A stretch of DNA of 47,623 bases from Escherichia phage TanjaMuster_Bas81 (PQ850630.1), one strand, 5' to 3'; positions 442 to 44,947 are shown, counted from the stretch's first letter. Translations and numbers: made by a program. The notes: a model not told the origin generated them from the sequence alone.

Positions 442-540
442 CTGATTTATAATAATCAATGCGGCTAGGGGGCACCCGAAAAGCGACTCATCACCGCCTG
501 CCGCATTCACTTCAATGATGCCCTGATGAGGAAGCTATAT

Positions 541-4156: not shown

Positions 4157-4405
4157 AGGTGGGGTAATGACAAGGAAATAGGTTCACGAATATTCTATTG
4201 CAGCCAGGAAGCGCGTCGAAGGTGTATGGACGAATCATGGATTGCGCAGCAATAGAGCTAAATTGTTTGCAAAATGTCACCAAGTAGTAATTGGCGACAG
4301 GATTGAGTGTTACGCGTTTAATCAGTGGATGAAGTCTGGTGTTGTTAATAAGGGATAATTACATCAGCACCGCGAGCATCATAATCAGCATTGCCACCAT
4401 GCTAT

Positions 4406-4435
4406 AATCCCATCCAACGTGATGGGATTTTTTTA
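4406..4435 (+). terminator. intrinsic terminator/attenuator hairpin immediately upstream of portal RBS
   Basis: 9-bp perfect stem aatcccatc/gatgggatt, 6-nt loop, followed by TTTTT; ends a ~250-nt ORF-free stretch. Confidence 0.55.
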
Positions 4436-9791: not shown

Positions 9792-9921
9792 GCGAAAAGA
9801 ATATGACAAGATGGCTTCTGATGTGGTAAGTGGTCGCGCTGGTTATCAGCCTGCGGTGAAATGCAGGCTAAGCAAATCGCCAAAGAAATGCTATGGAAAA
9901 CCACCTGAATCACTGCGCAAT

Positions 9922-9950
9922 AAAAAACCCCTCAATTGAGGGGTTTTTCT
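9922..9950. terminator. bidirectional intrinsic terminator
   Basis: cccctc/gagggg stem 9928-9943 flanked by A6 and T5 tracts. Confidence 0.75.
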
Positions 9951-9951
9951 T

Positions 9952-10089
9952 ATGAGTCAGCGATTCGCAGTCGCTGACTGCTACCAGAAAACATGTACCG
10001 AAGCTCACGTTGTCGTTACTTATAGCAAAGTAATAGTAGCAATAACCTTTCCCTGCGTCAACTCCATGCGCAATAAAAAAACCCCGTAA
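9952..10089 (+). CDS. candidate small hydrophobic peptide (45 aa)
   Basis: manual translation MSQRFAVADCYQKTCTEAHVVVTYSKVIVAITFPCVNSMRNKKTP; putative SD GAGGGG is buried in terminator stem; flanked by two terminators; speculative. Confidence 0.2.
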   Translation: MSQRFAVADCYQKTCTEAHVVVTYSKVIVAITFPCVNSMRNKKTP

Positions 10090-10099
10090 TGGGGCTTTG
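10074..10099 (-). terminator. intrinsic terminator of minus-strand cassette
   Basis: cccc/gggg stem 10082-10094, rev-comp followed by T7; directly after stop of gene 10102..10308. Confidence 0.6.
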
Positions 10100-10101
10100 T
10101 T

Positions 10102-10308
10102 TTAGAACTGAGTAATGCGAGCGTCTAAAATATTCCCATAGGTTCGCATTGCGTTAAGTTGAGTGAAGAGTAGATGCTTTTCAATTTCAGGAAGAAGCAT
10201 ATATTCAGGATTATTTTTGATAAAGGCATCAAGCATTTCCGCCCTTCCCCATAAGTCGCGAGCCTCATCAATAACTCTTTTTTGGTAAGGTTTCATTTCT
10301 TTAGTCAT
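10102..10308 (-). CDS. hypothetical protein
   Basis: 68-aa track ORF. Confidence 0.5.
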   Translation of the reverse strand: MTKEMKPYQKRVIDEARDLWGRAEMLDAFIKNNPEYMLLPEIEKHLLFTQLNAMRTYGNILDARITQF

Positions 10309-10460
10309 TTTAATTTTCCGTATAGCGGTTTAATTTCATACCCAAACATCTGCGCATTCTCATGCTCAACGCTACCAGCAAACACCAGGTAACGCTTGCC
10401 TCGATTATCCGTAACGATGTAGGCAGATGGCTCACTCTGCTGGCAATGTTGTTGGCTCAT
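10305..10460 (-). CDS. hypothetical protein (51 aa)
   Basis: track ORF 10305..10523 trimmed to ATG 10460 preceded by GAGGAA RBS. Confidence 0.4.
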   Translation of the reverse strand: MSQQHCQQSEPSAYIVTDNRGKRYLVFAGSVEHENAQMFGYEIKPLYGKLK

Positions 10461-10740
10461 CAACAGATTCCTCAACCGCAGCTTCAACGATGCGCACCAG
10501 TGAACACTCAAGGTTCGGTGCATTGTAATTACCAGCCAGAAACAGAACGCTACCCGTACTAATCAGCACCTGCTTTGCGCCTGCCTGTGACAGATTCTGC
10601 ACGATGAATTGCGCCGTTTCCGTGCCGATTTTCAGCACTGCACTACCGTCGCTGTTCAGTGATACCAGTTGTGCGGATGTGTCAGCAATATTGGTAAAGT
10701 TCGCATTTCGTTGCGCGATTGTGATGTCGCAGAATGACAT
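10432..10740 (-). CDS. hypothetical protein
   Basis: 102-aa track ORF; 29-nt overlap with downstream gene. Confidence 0.45.
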   Translation of the reverse strand: MSFCDITIAQRNANFTNIADTSAQLVSLNSDGSAVLKIGTETAQFIVQNLSQAGAKQVLISTGSVLFLAGNYNAPNLECSLVRIVEAAVEESVDEPTTLPAE

Positions 10741-11231
10741 TATTTAATCTCTCCATTCAGTTCATTAACAATTAACGTCGCATAGCCAGCAATATCTTTC
10801 CAGCTATCGTCATAAGTCGGGTCGCCATTCAGGATGCGCCCAATCTTGTGCTGAATCATGTCGAGCGCCTCGCGTTGGCTTGGCGTCAGGTTGCGCCAGC
10901 CATCTACCTCGCGCATTACATCTTTCAGCTCCTGCATGATTTCAGCGCCGTCTTTGAATTTGCCGTATCGACTACCGCGTTCGGTGATGAGTTGCTCGGT
11001 TGCGTCAGCCTCTGGCGCGCCAATGCAATCGTTGAGGTCTTGCTCGTCGGTAATTGGCTCACGGTATGCAATAACAACATCCCCGCAACCCTCAATCACT
11101 TCAATGCGACCAGCATAATCTATGCTTAGATAGAAAATCTCACCAGTACTTCCTGACTTAACTACAAGATAAGCCGTGTCATGGCCAGCAAAATCATCAT
11201 CACATCCTTTCAGATATTTCCACTTTTTCAT
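10740..11231 (-). CDS. hypothetical protein (acidic, conserved-looking LTPSQREALDMIQHKIGRI...DSWKDIAGYA segment)
   Basis: 163-aa track ORF; family not confidently recognised. Confidence 0.55.
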   Translation of the reverse strand: MKKWKYLKGCDDDFAGHDTAYLVVKSGSTGEIFYLSIDYAGRIEVIEGCGDVVIAYREPITDEQDLNDCIGAPEADATEQLITERGSRYGKFKDGAEIMQELKDVMREVDGWRNLTPSQREALDMIQHKIGRILNGDPTYDDSWKDIAGYATLIVNELNGEIK

Positions 11232-11422
11232 TTCATCGTCACCAGATTATTTTCATCAACATTAAAATTCTCACGAATCACCTGGTACATCTCATCTTTA
11301 GGCATATCAGCCAGTGCCACATAGCAGCGGGCAAAGTAGCGAACATCACGGAGTGTCAGCGGCTGGCGCTTCTCCACAATGCTGGTGATAATGTCCATCG
11401 GCTCGCGTCGTGGTCTTGGCAT
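11228..11422 (-). CDS. hypothetical protein
   Basis: track ORF trimmed to ATG 11422 with AAGGAG RBS. Confidence 0.5.
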   Translation of the reverse strand: MPRPRREPMDIITSIVEKRQPLTLRDVRYFARCYVALADMPKDEMYQVIRENFNVDENNLVTMK

Positions 11423-11522
11423 ATTTACTACTCCTTCTCGAAAATTATTGTTGACCAATCTACATCATTTAGTCAATACTTATTGACGTAGATTGTACCA
11501 CAACGGAAAAGGTGATGTGGAA

Positions 11523-11720
11523 ATGCGATACAAAGAAATAGCAGCGAGATATCAGAAAGAGGTGCGCGAGGTTATGGAAATCCTTAACGTTCGCGAAGAT
11601 ACCATTAAGTATGTGGAAACTGCCATGTGTTCACTGGCTCTTGAAGCGGAGGTTGCAGGTCGTGAAAAGGCTGACGAACTTATATCTGCGGTGGTTTATA
11701 GTTCAACCAGTAACGGTTGA
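11523..11720 (+). CDS. hypothetical protein
   Basis: track ORF trimmed to ATG 11523 after AAAAGGTGA. Confidence 0.5.
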   Translation: MRYKEIAARYQKEVREVMEILNVREDTIKYVETAMCSLALEAEVAGREKADELISAVVYSSTSNG

Positions 11721-11780
11721 AGACGAAGGTTATCTGTGCGTTGAGCATGTTGTTATTAAATTCTACGGGAGAAATTACAA

Positions 11781-11975
11781 ATGGCGCATGACGAGCTGTA
11801 CGAAAACTCGCTAATCCAGCGACTGAATGAAGTTGAACGTACTCGCGAATGGCTTGAGTGTGACCTGCGAGAAGTGCGTAACCGCCTGCAACGCAATCGC
11901 AGCCAGCAGAAGGACGTTATCGACTGGTCGGGCGATACGCCTAAATTTAACAACATTGGAGAATGGATAAAATGA
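11781..11975 (+). CDS. hypothetical coiled-coil protein
   Basis: 64-aa track ORF, GGGAGA RBS. Confidence 0.5.
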   Translation: MAHDELYENSLIQRLNEVERTREWLECDLREVRNRLQRNRSQQKDVIDWSGDTPKFNNIGEWIK

Positions 11976-12193
11976 GAAAGTTCAGCACGATACACGAATT
12001 GGTTTTAGCTGATATTCGTGAGTCAAACGCCAGAAATAAGAAGTCAAGAAATCAGCGGCAAGATATTACTTTTCGCACACTGCTTAAGCAATCGATGCGC
12101 AATAAAAAGGAATGGAGATACAGACGCGACCGAGTTCTGATAAGACTGTGCAAGTTAAACATGAATAAGATACTTAAGGATATGACAAAATGA
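11972..12193 (+). CDS. hypothetical basic protein
   Basis: track ORF, ATG 11972 overlapping upstream stop (ATGA). Confidence 0.5.
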   Translation: MRKFSTIHELVLADIRESNARNKKSRNQRQDITFRTLLKQSMRNKKEWRYRRDRVLIRLCKLNMNKILKDMTK

Positions 12194-12441
12194 GCGCACC
12201 ACATATGCCGATGATGAATGAGGAAGGATTTTTGAACTGCCCATTCTGTGGCTGCAATGAAGTTAGCATTGCTGTCGATGAGGATGGGTGGGAGTACATA
12301 GAATGCGGAGATTGCTATTGCCGTACAGACGCATTTCGTAACAGAGAGCTAATGACTAAATCATGGAACACGAGAGAGGGACACATCTACACCGCAGACG
12401 ACTTCAATCAGGCAGCGGAGGAGCGCGATTATGGATTATAA
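12190..12441 (+). CDS. Lar-family restriction alleviation protein (zinc-ribbon)
   Basis: CPFCG...C..C motif and KSWNTRE segment match my recollection of the Lar (Rac prophage) family signature. Confidence 0.55.
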   Translation: MSAPHMPMMNEEGFLNCPFCGCNEVSIAVDEDGWEYIECGDCYCRTDAFRNRELMTKSWNTREGHIYTADDFNQAAEERDYGL

Positions 12442-12919
12442 ATCACAAATCATGCGCGTGATTATGATGCATCCCGGCGCAACGCGTGCATACATTGAGA
12501 AGCATTGCGGAGGAAAGCACTCTAGCACTACAACGCACCGTCTGCATGAGATGCTTGCGCTTGGCTTTATTCGCCGCGAGAAGTCAGTGATTCGTGGTGG
12601 CAAGTGGCAGTATAAGTATTTCATCTCTGATGATGCGGCAGGTATTGATGATGCAATTAAGTGCCATCTGATTGATAACGCTGGCGCAGAAGTGAAAGAA
12701 ATCAGCATCGCAACTGGCATTGATTACCGAATCGTGAAAAGCCGCGTCCGCATTATGTTTCATAACGGTGATGTGACGCGAAGCTATGACCACCACAAGA
12801 AACTGTGGCGTTACTCATGGAAGGAGCAGGAAGTAAATGTGAGCAACCTGTTTAATTCACTTCTTCGCAACGCAAGAGGTCGTCATGGGGAAAGCGAAAC
12901 GCAAGAAGCAAGAGTATGA
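12431..12919 (+). CDS. hypothetical protein
   Basis: 162-aa track ORF. Confidence 0.55.
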   Translation: MDYKSQIMRVIMMHPGATRAYIEKHCGGKHSSTTTHRLHEMLALGFIRREKSVIRGGKWQYKYFISDDAAGIDDAIKCHLIDNAGAEVKEISIATGIDYRIVKSRVRIMFHNGDVTRSYDHHKKLWRYSWKEQEVNVSNLFNSLLRNARGRHGESETQEARV

Positions 12920-13061
12920 GCCACTGCCGCCATGCGAAATGTCAGGAATGCCACAGCAAGAGGACGTGATTCTCACCGAGGCAGAGTGGCGCAAGGTGGC
13001 AAGGGTGCAAATCATGTTCCGCAAACTTGCTGAGGACGTACTAAATGAGATGGGCTATTAA
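12885..13061 (+). CDS. hypothetical protein (58 aa)
   Basis: manual translation MGKAKRKKQEYEPLPPCEMSGMPQQEDVILTEAEWRKV...; AGAGGT RBS; overlaps both neighbours. Confidence 0.3.
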   Translation: MGKAKRKKQEYEPLPPCEMSGMPQQEDVILTEAEWRKVARVQIMFRKLAEDVLNEMGY

Positions 13062-13395
13062 GCACAAATCCGGCAGAACTCTGTTTGTAACATCAGATGA
13101 GTTCATTGCCAATAACCGTAAAGAGATGGGCTGGATAGTGGAGGAAGTGAAGATGACGAGTAAAGAGCAGTTTAACGAATGGTTTTATGAATATACCGGG
13201 TGCAACCCAAAGGACAGTAGATATGTGAATATGGTCGAGATGTACTGGATGGCATGGCAGGCATCTCGCGCAGCAATTGAGATTGAATTGCCAGAGCCGT
13301 GCTCCCCAGGTGATTTCTGTGTTGATATACCAGCACAAGCACATCATGAAGTTATTGAAGCAATCGAAAACGCAGGCTTAAAGGTGAAAAAATGA
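13045..13395 (+). CDS. hypothetical protein
   Basis: 116-aa track ORF. Confidence 0.55.
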   Translation: MRWAIKHKSGRTLFVTSDEFIANNRKEMGWIVEEVKMTSKEQFNEWFYEYTGCNPKDSRYVNMVEMYWMAWQASRAAIEIELPEPCSPGDFCVDIPAQAHHEVIEAIENAGLKVKK

Positions 13396-13721
13396 TTATC
13401 CAGTTAAACGACATTATGAAAGCAGACATCATTCAGCTTGAAGATTATGACATGCAATTGGCGTTTGAAATCGAAACTGTTGAGCGTCAACTGCAATATG
13501 CAGATAAGAAGAATGACCGCGTCTGGCATGAGAAAGCACTTAAGGCACGCGACCACATGAAGCGCACGCGAGCACTCATCAAAACGCGACTCGATAAGCT
13601 GTATTTTGGCGAAGAAAGGATGTTGCATGGCGCAATTCTTGCCGAGGTGCGCAAAACAATGTCAGTTGGTCGCTTCATGGAACTGGTACATAAGGCTAAA
13701 CGTAATGCGGGGTTGGTTTGA
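13392..13721 (+). CDS. hypothetical protein
   Basis: 109-aa track ORF. Confidence 0.55.
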   Translation: MIIQLNDIMKADIIQLEDYDMQLAFEIETVERQLQYADKKNDRVWHEKALKARDHMKRTRALIKTRLDKLYFGEERMLHGAILAEVRKTMSVGRFMELVHKAKRNAGLV

Positions 13722-13969
13722 TGGAATTTAATATAAATGAGTCTGTAAAAATTAAGCTCAACGATAATGGCATCAATATTCTGCGCAAGCGACACAATGA
13801 ACTTCGTTTGAGAGTTCCTGGTATTGGTGATTTTGTCGAGCCAGCAAAAGATGATGATGGATATTCGTCATTTCCGCTGTGGGCGCTATTCGATACATTT
13901 GGAGAATATGTCCACCTTGGGTGCATTCCACCATTCGACACTACAATTATCATCCCGGAGCGAAAATGA
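13718..13969 (+). CDS. hypothetical protein
   Basis: 83-aa track ORF. Confidence 0.5.
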   Translation: MMEFNINESVKIKLNDNGINILRKRHNELRLRVPGIGDFVEPAKDDDGYSSFPLWALFDTFGEYVHLGCIPPFDTTIIIPERK

Positions 13970-14112
13970 TTCCATTACTTTGGATATTATCCGCCTACGC
14001 ATTCGCAAGGGTATTTGAGGCTGACACGCTGTACCAGATGATTTGCTATGGCGCTCTGTTCTGCCTGTCAGGTGCTGCGCTTGCATTCATGGATGATGTG
14101 ATTTCAGACTAA
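13966..14112 (+). CDS. small membrane protein (48 aa)
   Basis: track ORF 13879..14112 trimmed to ATG 13966 after GGAGCGAAA; hydrophobic MIPLLWILSAYAFARVF... Confidence 0.45.
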   Translation: MIPLLWILSAYAFARVFEADTLYQMICYGALFCLSGAALAFMDDVISD

Positions 14113-14264
14113 CACCGTATATCTTTTGTTCATCATGGGCTGCTATCATTTAATCAGGAGGTAGCCCATGAACATAATCCCTATCACTTACTTTCTCACG
14201 CTCTACGCGCTCACCGACTCGCCATTGTTTGCACTGGCTACCGCCTCATGGTGCTACATCTCCC

Positions 14265-14275
14265 TGTGTTATAAT
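14265..14275 (+). promoter_or_regulatory. extended -10 promoter (TGtTATAAT) upstream of capsid genes
   Basis: tgtgttataat at 14265-14275, about 30 nt before RBS of gene 14307. Confidence 0.45.
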
Positions 14276-14306
14276 TCGACCACAAACTAACCGTGGAGAG
14301 TTAACC

Positions 14307-16183
<1,877 letters not shown>

Positions 16184-17875: not shown

Positions 17876-17901
17876 AAAACCCGCATTATGCGGGTTTTTT
17901 A
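17876..17901. terminator. bidirectional intrinsic terminator
   Basis: cccgc/gcggg stem flanked by A4 and T6. Confidence 0.75.
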
Positions 17902-44487: not shown

Positions 44488-44623
44488 TTTTTGTGGTGTG
44501 ATTAATAATCGCGCAATTAGCCATGTTTCACCAGAACTCACTGATGCGACACCTGAAAATCGCATTGACGTAGAATTACAACTGATGTAGATTGAACTCA
44601 TCAAAACAAACGAGGGTGAAGAG

Positions 44624-44770: not shown

Positions 44771-44947
44771 CAGGCGCAAAACTCGAGCTTATCGCCAGTC
44801 TGGTTATCTTGGCATTCATCATTATCGCAGTGGCAGTTTCAAAATCAGGGTATGAGAGGTGAAATGAGCAATTGGCATAACGAACATATCATGCAGTGGT
44901 ATCGCCGTAGCATCAAGGCAATCATTAACTCTTATGAGGTTTAACAA

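What the first reader, a model, noticed from the sequence alone, without database searches (positions are those of the whole stretch)
11523..14112. Early-type cluster of about 12 small genes including a Lar-family restriction-alleviation protein, embedded between lysis and capsid genes
The plus-strand block from 11523 to 14112 consists of tightly coupled small ORFs (48-162 aa) of unknown function. One (12190..12441) has the CPFCG...C..C...WN.R signature I associate with Lar anti-restriction proteins. Clusters like this typically hold host-takeover and anti-defence factors, and their position between late gene blocks is atypical.
Basis: partly seen in the sequence, partly recalled or inferred. 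Interest (0 to 1): 0.5.

Follow-up and report, generated by a model that had tools for sequence, protein, structure and literature searches.

The report
Small-gene operon with Lar-like gene
This is a real operon of about eleven small phage genes, typical of its phage lineage, and it includes a zinc-ribbon protein distantly related to the Lar/RalR "restriction alleviation" protein; that label is already in public annotation, is untested, and published plating data show the phage is still strongly restricted.

Summary
Ten tightly coupled plus-strand ORFs of 48-162 aa fill 11523-14112, and an eleventh lies at 14168-14290. All show purifying selection and match phage protein families.

The window is almost certainly the published coliphage TanjaMuster (Bas81), a Skatevirus-like siphovirus.

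ORF 12190-12441 is a genuine but distant Lar/RalR-family zinc ribbon:
- It passes the Pfam threshold.
- HHalign against K-12 RalR gives 97.9% probability.
- It falls just below the NCBIfam cut-off.
- It lacks the lysine that RalR needs for DNase activity.

Relatives already carry the "Lar-like" annotation, so the call is not new. I found no functional data. Bas81 itself plates at about 1e-3 on EcoKI, so the gene gives no strong protection.

The position between lysis and capsid genes is the norm for this lineage, not atypical.

"Early-type" is plausible but unproven. The operon starts at a conserved divergent control region carrying a genome-wide motif (TGAYGTAGATT) shared with recombination and accessory units. 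Capsid, portal and tail genes instead have perfect extended -10 boxes.

New here: the Lar-like gene has conserved ends but a hypervariable core that is swapped as a cassette among phages about 90% identical elsewhere. It is always followed by a translationally coupled tandem winged-helix gene.

Overall the finding is ordinary, with one interesting twist.

The parts
11423..11522 (.). Divergent control region between the leftward small-gene unit (first gene starts at ATG 11422) and the rightward cluster. It holds two inverted copies of the genome-wide motif TGAYGTAGATT, at 11457-11468 (minus) and 11483-11494 (plus).
   Evidence: 87% mean column identity with long invariant runs across 11 phages (A3). 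The motif is kept at the orthologous place even in Klebsiella and Vibrio relatives. Sigma-70-like hexamers are present, but the generic scan is not above chance.
11523..11720 (+). g1, 65 aa, unknown function
   Evidence: phrog_37091, E 1e-47. 95-100% aa identity in 9 of 10 relatives; pN/pS 0.08.
11781..11975 (+). g2, 64 aa, helical/coiled-coil-like, unknown function
   Evidence: phrog_15697, E 2e-41. 88-94% identity in 10 of 10 relatives; pN/pS 0.19.
11972..12193 (+). g3, 73 aa, very basic DUF7301 protein; missing in phages HC6 and Sf11
   Evidence: Pfam PF23975, 85.6 bits against a gathering threshold of 27.
12190..12441 (+). g4, 83 aa, Lar/RalR-family zinc-ribbon protein with lineage-specific N-terminal (residues 1-16) and C-terminal (residues 63-83) extensions
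   Evidence: Pfam PF14354 37.2 bits (above gathering threshold). TIGR03655 37.3 bits against a 39.6 cut-off. phrog_599. BLASTP to K-12 RalR 33% over 46 aa. HHalign 97.9%. AF2 model pLDDT 84.5, zinc-ribbon hairpin plus helix. No PDB neighbour beyond generic zinc ribbons.
12253..12363 (+). Hypervariable core of g4 (codons 22-58), exchanged as a cassette between phages
   Evidence: DNA identity is 0.30-0.54 here against 0.85-0.96 in the flanks for most phage pairs. Bas80/DS8 share 0.99 here while their flanks are 0.84-0.92. pN 0.48 and pS 0.82, against pN 0.08-0.15 at the ends. There are 20 core classes at 60% identity among 41 cluster representatives. By tblastn, 184 of 201 phage records are below 60% identical, while the next gene is at least 80% identical in 95 of 155.
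12431..12919 (+). g5, 162 aa, tandem winged-helix DNA-binding protein; overlaps the end of g4 by 11 nt
   Evidence: phrog_1687 'MarR family', E 7e-57. Pfam MarR_2 scores only 16 bits, below the gathering threshold. A profile hits the PDB winged-helix proteins 1sfx (E 0.0055) and AspA for residues 73-134. It co-occurs next to the Lar-like gene in Klebsiella, Vibrio and Aeromonas relatives.
12885..13061 (+). g6, 58 aa, unknown function
   Evidence: phrog_17117, E 9e-40. 95-100% identity in 9 of 10 relatives.
13045..13395 (+). g7, 116 aa, unknown function; second variable gene of the operon
   Evidence: phrog_343. 50-78% identity in relatives; pN/pS 0.62. No PDB sequence relative.
13392..13721 (+). 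g8, 109 aa, helical, unknown function
   Evidence: phrog_14549, E 2e-65. 86-90% identity in relatives.
13721..13969 (+). g9, 82 aa; horizontally acquired gene absent from all 10 relatives examined. It belongs to a widespread small-domain family with a confidently predicted fold that has no solved relative.
13966..14112 (+). g10, 48 aa, hydrophobic (probably membrane) peptide
   Evidence: phrog_18423, E 8e-37. 81-100% identity; pN/pS 0.07. Hydrophobicity was judged from the sequence.
14133..14172 (+). Strong conserved hairpin that buries the ribosome-binding site and start codon of g11. It has no U-tract, so it is not a canonical intrinsic terminator.
   Evidence: RNA fold. The region 14105-14312 is 97% identical over 11 phages (A8). 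The terminator scan finds nothing here. The ASO78B record annotates a WebGeSTer terminator at the orthologous site.
   Evidence: 90-100% identity in 10 of 10 relatives; pN/pS 0.08. Annotated as a CDS in Bas79, Bas80 and KFSST1.
14267..14275 (+). Perfect extended -10 box TGTTATAAT, 31 nt upstream of the prohead-protease start (14307)
   Evidence: Invariant in 11 phages. It is one of only four TGnTATAAT sites in the genome. All four are plus-strand and lie 29-37 nt upstream of structural genes: portal, protease/capsid, major tail and phrog_791.
10102..11422 (-). Leftward small-gene unit transcribed from the same control region; ends at the bidirectional terminator 10078-10098
   Evidence: ORFs and PHROG matches. 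Terminator. Conserved in relatives.

Best explanation
The region is a lineage-typical accessory operon of the Skatevirus-like coliphage TanjaMuster (Bas81).

Shown:
- Eleven real small genes are translationally coupled and run rightward from a conserved divergent control region.
- That region carries two inverted copies of a promoter-type motif (TGAYGTAGATT; TAGATT resembles a -10 hexamer). The motif heads about ten other transcription units, including the recombination (exonuclease VIII / Sak4-like) unit.
- The operon is separated from the capsid genes by an ultra-conserved hairpin and by a perfect extended -10 box of the kind found only before structural genes.
- Gene 4 is a distant member of the Lar/RalR zinc-ribbon family. 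Gene 5, coupled to it, is a tandem winged-helix DNA-binding protein.

Inferred:
- The operon belongs to the non-structural (early or middle) regulon.
- Gene 5 may bind the repeated motif.
- Gene 4 acts as Lar and Ral are thought to act. On this reading it engages the host type I restriction-modification complex and tilts it toward methylation. Rare escaping genomes and their progeny would then be modified. The incoming DNA would not be shielded. That fits the strong restriction actually measured.
- The hypervariable, cassette-swapped ribbon surface between conserved ends would be the part that contacts a polymorphic host partner.
For: Gene reality and coupling.

Identity of the phage: the window has the same length as Bas81 (47,623 bp) and the same site counts (EcoKI 2, EcoRI 6, EcoRV 28, EcoP1 47). 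Its closest relative is ASO78B, as the paper states.

Lar family membership.

Family breadth: 194 cluster representatives match mostly residues 14-64 only, so the terminal extensions are lineage-specific.

Hypervariable cassette.

Conserved Lar-like / winged-helix pairing across distant relatives.

Motif: 12 hits against 0.55 expected. Nearly all point toward, and lie 22-80 nt before, the first gene of a unit. The motif is conserved in relatives.

Structural-gene extended -10 boxes.

Literature: Ral and Lar are believed to enhance de novo methylation by EcoKI through an unknown mechanism, and lambda, which encodes Ral, still escapes at only 1e-4 to 1e-5 (PMC3177214).
Against: No experiment addresses this gene. 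All nine papers that use the 'Lar-like' label only repeat the annotation.

Bas81 plates at 6e-4 to 1.8e-3 on EcoKI with two sites and at 4e-3 to 1.5e-2 on EcoCFT_I. Its Lar-carrying relatives with one EcoKI site plate at 0.02-0.2. This scaling with site number is what an unprotected phage would show.

The paper calls these phages 'markedly sensitive to RM systems'.

The match misses the NCBIfam cut-off, and the fold is a generic zinc ribbon.

The founder protein has also been described as a non-specific DNase toxin (PMC4041452), so the family's biochemical function is itself unsettled.

Timing is inferred from motifs only. I found no transcriptome for this lineage. One copy of the motif also precedes the endolysin gene, which is usually late.
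Confidence: 0.4

Rival explanations
1. The Lar-like zinc ribbon is not an anti-restriction factor. It is a partner of the winged-helix protein encoded by the next, overlapping gene, and the pair acts as a phage regulator of transcription or replication at the repeated TGAYGTAGATT sites.
For: The two genes overlap by 11 nt and co-occur in about 155-200 phage records across distant hosts. The strongly conserved N- and C-terminal extensions are specific to this lineage, as expected for a surface that docks onto a conserved phage partner. The nearest structural neighbours are nucleic-acid-machinery zinc ribbons (NrdR, Rpb9/C11, eIF2-beta), although these matches are not significant. The motif sites occur mostly in pairs, like operators.
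Against: A regulator partnered with a 90%-conserved protein would not be expected to carry a core that is swapped among at least 20 unrelated classes. The whole g1-g8 block is syntenic, so adjacency alone is weak evidence. No interaction was tested.
Confidence: 0.2
2. The protein works like RalR as described in 2014. On this reading it is a small metal-dependent DNase that damages host DNA, and any restriction alleviation would be an indirect result of DNA damage.
For: It is homologous to RalR over the ribbon and the WNxR motif. RalR cleaves DNA non-specifically and induces SOS (PMC4041452). That DNA damage triggers ClpXP-dependent restriction alleviation is recalled from my own knowledge; the papers seen here (listed) describe ClpXP-dependent alleviation triggered by unmodified sites on the host chromosome.
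Against: The RalR equivalog model scores 19 against a cut-off of 113. RalR Lys52, whose K52Q change abolishes DNase activity, aligns with Thr61, and this threonine is nearly invariant in the phage clade. Arg49 and Tyr39 are also not kept. A non-specific nuclease would endanger the phage's own DNA. No RalA-like RNA was found at Rfam gathering thresholds.
Confidence: 0.08
3. The cluster is not early. It is the promoter-proximal part of the head operon and is expressed with the capsid genes.
For: It has the same strand as the capsid genes and is contiguous with them, with gaps of 55 and 16 nt. There is no canonical intrinsic terminator between 14112 and 14307. The next clear plus-strand terminator is at 17876-17898.
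Against: A conserved strong hairpin follows g10, and an invariant perfect extended -10 box sits 31 nt before the protease gene. The cluster's own control region shares its motif with recombination and accessory units, not with structural ones.
Confidence: 0.15
4. The hypervariable core reflects escape from recognition. On this reading the protein, or its gene, is sensed by a host defence, and allele swapping avoids the sensor. The core would then not be adapting to bind a host target.
For: The allele pattern is bimodal and cassette-like, with very old allele classes on a young backbone. This is typical of loci under balancing or diversifying selection in host-virus conflict.
Against: No sensor is known. 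There is no PADLOC or defence link. The zinc ligands, the WNxR motif and both ends are rigidly kept, which argues for a retained activity.
Confidence: 0.1

Closest known systems
Lar (= RalR) of the E. coli K-12 Rac prophage
   Same: A small four-cysteine zinc ribbon (CPFCGC...CxxC) followed by WNxR. 33% identity over 46 residues. Profile-to-sequence probability 97.9%. It falls in Pfam PF14354.
   Different: The phage protein has conserved 16-residue N-terminal and 21-residue C-terminal extensions that are absent from RalR. It lacks RalR Lys52, Arg49 and Tyr39. It misses the RalR equivalog model and narrowly misses TIGR03655. It sits in a lytic phage operon next to a winged-helix gene, rather than beside recET with a RalA antitoxin RNA. 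Its core is hypervariable.
Ral of phage lambda
   Same: The proposed mode of action is the same: modest alleviation of type IA restriction plus enhanced de novo modification, without shielding the infecting genome (PMC3177214). This fits the residual strong restriction of Bas81.
   Different: That Ral and Lar share no sequence similarity is recalled from King & Murray 1995; I did not test it here. The function of the phage gene is untested.
DNA-mimic anti-restriction proteins (T7 Ocr, ArdA)
   Same: Small phage- or plasmid-borne proteins aimed at type I R-M systems.
   Different: Those proteins give near-complete protection (my recollection). Bas81 is restricted 100- to 1000-fold by the two type I systems tested. 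The fold here is a zinc ribbon, not an acidic DNA mimic.
Accessory small-gene blocks of other Skatevirus- and Roufvirus-like phages (Skate, Vi II-E1, Sf11, C1, DS8, ASO78B, Bas77-80, KlebP_265)
   Same: Same gene order, same divergent control region and same Lar-like / winged-helix pair between the lysis and capsid modules. The Lar-like gene is listed as a core gene of the proposed 'Skatevirinae' (PMC11769527).
   Different: This phage carries its own Lar core allele, shared at 86-90% identity with only a few records. It also has a unique extra gene, g9.

Membership tests
Lar restriction-alleviation family (Pfam PF14354 / NCBIfam TIGR03655) | Small protein built on a four-cysteine zinc ribbon (CPxCG ... 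CxxC) | tested here: met
   C17, C20, C39 and C42 are invariant in 41 homologues. The AF2 model shows a ribbon hairpin with pLDDT above 92 over residues 11-60.
Lar restriction-alleviation family (Pfam PF14354 / NCBIfam TIGR03655) | Conserved WNxR motif after the ribbon | tested here: met
   W59, N60 and R62 are invariant, including in the alignment with K-12 RalR.
Lar restriction-alleviation family (Pfam PF14354 / NCBIfam TIGR03655) | Score above the Pfam gathering threshold | tested here: met
   37.2 bits against 28.6, covering profile positions 4-57 of 58.
Lar restriction-alleviation family (Pfam PF14354 / NCBIfam TIGR03655) | Score above the NCBIfam TIGR03655 cut-off | tested here: not met
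   37.3 bits against 39.6. This is a narrow miss. Homology is still supported by HHalign at 97.9%.
Lar restriction-alleviation family (Pfam PF14354 / NCBIfam TIGR03655) | Alleviates type IA (EcoKI) restriction and enhances modification | not testable with these tools
   Published plating data for this phage are EcoKI EOP 6e-4 to 1.8e-3 and EcoCFT_I EOP 4e-3 to 1.5e-2. So there is no strong protection. A Ral-like modification effect is neither shown nor excluded.
RalR type I toxin (NCBIfam NF007260 equivalog) | Equivalog-level sequence score | tested here: not met
   19.2 bits against a cut-off of 113.
RalR type I toxin (NCBIfam NF007260 equivalog) | Residues needed for toxicity and DNase activity (RalR positions 14, 37, 39, 49, 51, 52; K52Q is inactive) | tested here: not met
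   C14, T37 and N51 are kept. Y39 aligns with Ala47, R49 with Ser58 and K52 with Thr61, which is nearly invariant in the clade.
RalR type I toxin (NCBIfam NF007260 equivalog) | Partner antitoxin small RNA (RalA) | tested here: inconclusive
   The Rfam gathering search of the whole window finds only two tRNAs and an int-alpA RNA. I did not check whether Rfam holds a RalA model.
MarR-family regulators (for the neighbouring gene 12431-12919) | Score above the Pfam MarR or MarR_2 gathering threshold | tested here: not met
   MarR_2 scores 16.4 against 27, and MarR 13 against 24.6. Only the broader winged-helix assignment is supported (phrog_1687; PDB 1sfx and AspA profile hits).
Phage early (pre-replicative) gene cluster | Transcribed before structural genes from host-recognised promoters | not testable with these tools
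   The evidence is indirect only: the cluster has its own conserved control region and motif class, distinct from the extended -10 boxes of structural genes. I found no transcriptome.

The most novel reading that the evidence does not exclude
The Lar-like gene is a modular specificity device. Its conserved N- and C-terminal parts, possibly working with the coupled winged-helix protein, would provide a constant activity. The zinc-ribbon core, present in at least 20 unrelated allele classes and shuffled by recombination among otherwise near-identical phages, would then determine which polymorphic host defence component is engaged, for example different type I R-M families. That would make it a phage-side allelic library of counter-defence specificities and would give the long-unexplained Lar/Ral mechanism a tractable natural swap series.
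Probability: 0.2. Interest if true: 0.65.

Novelty: new member of a known kind. Interest (0 to 1): 0.3.

Why it matters
As stated, the finding adds little. The genome is published, the gene is already labelled Lar-like in relatives, and the layout is the norm for this lineage.

What could matter is the twist found here. How Ral and Lar redirect type I enzymes toward methylation has been unknown since the 1980s-90s (PMC3177214). This lineage offers dozens of natural core-swapped alleles on a constant scaffold, in phages from a well-phenotyped collection (BASEL). That makes allele-swap genetics against defined R-M systems straightforward.

The two promoter-like motif classes also give a testable map of the lineage's regulatory programme, which has not been studied.

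Tried and rejected
- PADLOC scan of the ten ORFs: no hits.
- PDB sequence searches for the Lar-like ORF, g5, g7 and g9: nothing significant by single sequence. The g5 profile gives only weak winged-helix hits.
- Foldseek PDB search with the Lar-like model: only non-significant generic zinc ribbons.
- Comparison of the Lar-like ORF with the other Rac zinc-binding protein, YdaE: no similarity.
- Generic sigma-70 and terminator scans: counts are at chance level, so they were not used as evidence on their own.
- Literature search for a Skatevirus transcriptome: none found. Searches for functional work on 'Lar-like' phage genes found annotation mentions only.
- A table in PMC11769527 looked as if it might be virion proteomics, which would have suggested packaging of the Lar-like protein. 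It is a core-gene table.
- Neutral drift as the explanation for the variable core: rejected. Identity is bimodal, at about 0.4 or at 0.85 or above. One allele is shared at 99% between phages whose flanks differ by 8-16%.
- The apparent Lar / winged-helix 'fusion' ORFs annotated in Sf11 and C1: I judged these to be over-extended start-codon calls, not fusions.
- Minus-strand ORFs in the region: no family support.
Full report
**Identity of the window**

The 47,623-bp window matches Escherichia phage TanjaMuster (Bas81, PQ850630) of the second BASEL collection.
- It has the same length as Bas81.
- Its restriction-site counts equal those tabulated for Bas81: EcoKI 2, EcoRI 6, EcoRV 28, EcoP1 47.
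- Its closest database relative is ASO78B, at about 71% coverage and 90% identity, as the paper states.

It belongs to the Skatevirus-like small siphoviruses (PMC11990801).

**The observation**

Ten plus-strand ORFs of 48-162 aa fill 11523-14112. An eleventh, of 40 aa, lies at 14168-14290. From the second gene on, eight of nine junctions overlap by 1-35 nt.

Each ORF matches a PHROG family. Ten of the eleven have orthologues in ten related phages. pN/pS is 0.07-0.24 for most of them. Eight minus-strand ORFs in the region have no family support.

- Endolysin and spanin lie upstream.
- The prohead-protease-like, decoration and capsid genes lie downstream.
- A leftward unit of small genes (10102-11422) lies in between. 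It ends at a bidirectional terminator at 10078-10098.

**Is the position atypical?**

No. The same order is present in Bas77-80, ASO78B, C1, DS8, ZK22, HC6, KFSST1, Sf11 and D10. That order is lysis genes, leftward small genes, a divergent control region, rightward small genes including the Lar-like and winged-helix genes, and then the protease-decoration-capsid genes. It is also present in the distant Klebsiella phage VLCpiS13c and Vibrio phage pYD38-A. A recent paper groups all of these as one proposed family with similar genome organisation and lists the Lar-like gene as a core gene of the Skatevirus-like half (PMC11769527).

**The Lar-like gene**

ORF 12190-12441 passes Pfam Lar_restr_allev at 37.2 bits against a threshold of 28.6. 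It narrowly misses NCBIfam TIGR03655 (37.3 against 39.6) and is far below the RalR equivalog model (19 against 113).

It aligns with K-12 RalR/Lar at 33% identity over 46 residues. A profile of 41 homologues matches RalR at 97.9% probability. The four cysteines and the WNxR motif are invariant.

The AlphaFold model (pLDDT 84.5) is a zinc-ribbon hairpin plus a helix, followed by a low-confidence C-terminal helix. It has no significant solved neighbour beyond generic zinc ribbons.

An exhaustive HMMER search finds 194 cluster representatives. Most are 55-70 aa and match only residues 14-64. The N- and C-terminal extensions therefore define a lineage-specific subfamily.

So this is a true but distant family member. 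The 'Lar-like restriction alleviation protein' label is already present in the records of relatives. All nine papers that use the phrase only repeat the annotation.

**What the label is worth**

Lar and Ral are believed to enhance de novo methylation by EcoKI, and the mechanism is unknown. Lambda, which encodes Ral, still escapes at only 1e-4 to 1e-5 (PMC3177214).

The founder protein was later described as a non-specific DNase toxin, RalR. Changes at positions 14, 37, 39, 49, 51 and 52 reduce its toxicity, and K52Q abolishes cleavage (PMC4041452). In the phage protein, Lys52 aligns with Thr61, which is nearly invariant in the clade. Arg49 and Tyr39 are not kept either. A RalR-type nuclease is therefore unlikely.

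Published plating data bear directly on function:

| Phage | EcoKI sites | EOP on EcoKI | EOP on EcoCFT_I | Source |
|---|---|---|---|---|
| Bas81 (this phage) | 2 | 6e-4 to 1.8e-3 | 4e-3 to 1.5e-2 | |
| Bas77-80 (also carry the gene) | 1 | 0.02-0.2 | about 1e-4 to 1e-3 | |

The authors call these phages markedly sensitive to R-M systems. The gene is therefore not an Ocr- or ArdA-type shield. A Ral-like modification enhancer remains possible but is not shown.

**The twist: a hypervariable core**

In ten relatives, the neighbouring proteins are 86-100% identical to those of the window, while the Lar-like protein is only 54-63% identical. The divergence is confined to codons 22-58:
- There, pN is 0.48 and pS is 0.82.
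- At the two ends, pN is 0.08-0.15.

At the DNA level the core is 30-54% identical in most phage pairs, while the flanks are 85-96% identical. Identity is bimodal:
- ZK22 and D10 share the core at 100%.
- D10 and KFSST1 share it at 85%.
- Bas80 and DS8 share it at 99%, although their flanks differ by 8-16%.

This is cassette exchange, not drift.

Among 41 cluster representatives there are 20 core classes at 60% identity. Median core identity is 22%, against 78% for the ends. Across the phage database, 184 of 201 matching records are below 60% identical. The adjacent winged-helix gene is at least 80% identical in 95 of 155 records. The zinc ligands are mostly retained; a few alleles, such as Bas80/DS8, have a non-canonical second knuckle. 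The WNxR motif and both ends are kept throughout.

Such a pattern points to a surface in conflict with something polymorphic. Whether that is a target being bound or a sensor being evaded cannot be decided here.

**The partner gene**

Gene 12431-12919 overlaps the Lar-like gene by 11 nt and follows it in all relatives examined, including the distant ones. It is a tandem winged-helix protein:
- phrog_1687 matches at E 7e-57.
- There is a weak Pfam MarR_2 match for residues 6-52.
- A profile hits winged-helix structures 1sfx and AspA for residues 73-134.

It does not reach the Pfam MarR thresholds.

**Regulation**

The 100-nt control region is much better conserved than synonymous sites nearby. 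It holds two inverted copies of a 12-mer, TTGAYGTAGATT. This 12-mer occurs 12 times in the genome at up to one mismatch, against 0.55 expected.

Nearly all copies point toward, and lie 22-80 nt before, the first gene of a transcription unit. These units include:
- the exonuclease VIII / Sak4-like recombination unit;
- the ParB-like block;
- several small-gene units;
- the endolysin gene.

TAGATT resembles a -10 hexamer. At two sites a perfect TTGACA sits 17 nt upstream. The motif is kept at the orthologous places in relatives, even in the Klebsiella and Vibrio phages.

The structural genes look different. The four perfect extended -10 boxes (TGnTATAAT) in the genome are all plus-strand. They lie 29-37 nt before the portal, prohead-protease, major-tail and phrog_791 genes.

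The box before the protease (14267-14275) lies in a 208-nt stretch that is 97% identical across eleven phages. That stretch also contains a strong hairpin over the g11 start.

The cluster therefore appears to be its own unit in the non-structural regulatory class. However, there is no canonical terminator after g10, and I found no transcriptome, so timing remains inferred.

**Other genes**

- g3 is a very basic DUF7301 protein.
- g7 is a second variable gene.
- g10 and g11 are hydrophobic peptides.
- g9 (13721-13969) is absent from all ten relatives. It belongs to a family found in Bacillus SPO1-like, Vibrio and Pantoea phages and is sometimes fused behind a LexA DNA-binding domain. Its model is very confident (pLDDT 94.7) but has no solved neighbour.
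- None of the ORFs matches a known defence-system protein.

**Verdict**

The Lar call is correct at the family level but is already public and functionally unproven. The claim of an atypical position is wrong. 'Early' is plausible.

The finding is ordinary. The exception is the hypervariable, cassette-swapped core of the Lar-like gene and its fixed pairing with a winged-helix gene. These are worth a modest follow-up, because the phages and defined R-M test strains already exist.

Noticed in passing
window 44864-44944 (+): A 26-aa ORF, MSNWHNEHIMQWYRRSIKAIINSYEV, whose first 14 residues match T4 Stp at 11 of 14 positions (the T4 sequence was recalled from memory). The BASEL paper's AntiDefenseFinder table lists 'stp, Anti_RM' at Bas81_0091. 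The phage therefore has a second, independent candidate factor against type I R-M, outside the cluster, in a unit headed by the TGAYGTAGATT motif at 44566 and 44583.
   Followed up: partly
window-wide; e.g. 2889, 8555, 8582, 11457, 11484, 20234, 25897, 37741, 37751, 40779, 44566, 44583: The motif TTGAYGTAGATT is about 20-fold over-represented. Nearly all copies are oriented toward the first gene of a non-structural transcription unit, usually in pairs, and the motif is conserved in distant relatives. It is either a promoter -10-region class or an operator for a phage regulator such as the tandem winged-helix protein.
   Followed up: partly
window 4400-4408, 14267-14275, 23875-23883, 25937-25945 (+): All four perfect extended -10 boxes (TGnTATAAT) lie 29-37 nt upstream of structural genes: portal, prohead protease, major tail protein and phrog_791. 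The count is not above chance (4 against 2.0), but the placement is striking. Two of them sit back-to-back with minus-strand TTGACA-17-TAGATT promoters.
   Followed up: partly
window 14105-14312: This stretch is 97% identical across eleven phages whose synonymous sites elsewhere differ by 12-50%. It contains a 12-bp-stem hairpin that buries the ribosome-binding site and start codon of a 40-aa hydrophobic ORF. The constraint appears to act on the nucleotide or RNA sequence and is unexplained.
   Followed up: partly
window 13721-13969 (+): g9 is a cross-phylum small domain found in Bacillus, Vibrio, Pantoea and enterobacterial phages. In some proteins it is fused behind a LexA DNA-binding domain or next to DUF551. 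The fold is confidently predicted and has no solved relative. It is unique to this phage among the ten relatives examined.
   Followed up: yes
window 22809-22884 and 22891-22978 (-): Two tRNA genes, Arg-TCT and Ser-GCT, lie inside the tail-gene region on the opposite strand.
   Followed up: no
window 458-521 (+): An Rfam int-alpA RNA match above the gathering score (42.6 against 35.8 bits), between the first two ORFs of the window.
   Followed up: no
window 11611-11814 (+): An alternative-frame ORF overlaps the end of g1, the g1-g2 gap and the start of g2, and matches phrog_27419 (E 3e-12). No plausible internal start codon was seen. It is either an annotation artefact propagated into PHROGs or an overlapping gene.
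   Followed up: partly
window 9914-9948 and 10067-10101: Two similar GC-rich hairpin terminators lie 153 nt apart between the lysis genes and the convergent leftward small-gene unit.
   Followed up: no
window 30353 and 43184: There are only two EcoKI sites (AACN6GTGC) in 47.6 kb, against about 5.8 expected from length alone. Relatives have one. Mild site avoidance may matter more than any anti-restriction gene.
   Followed up: no
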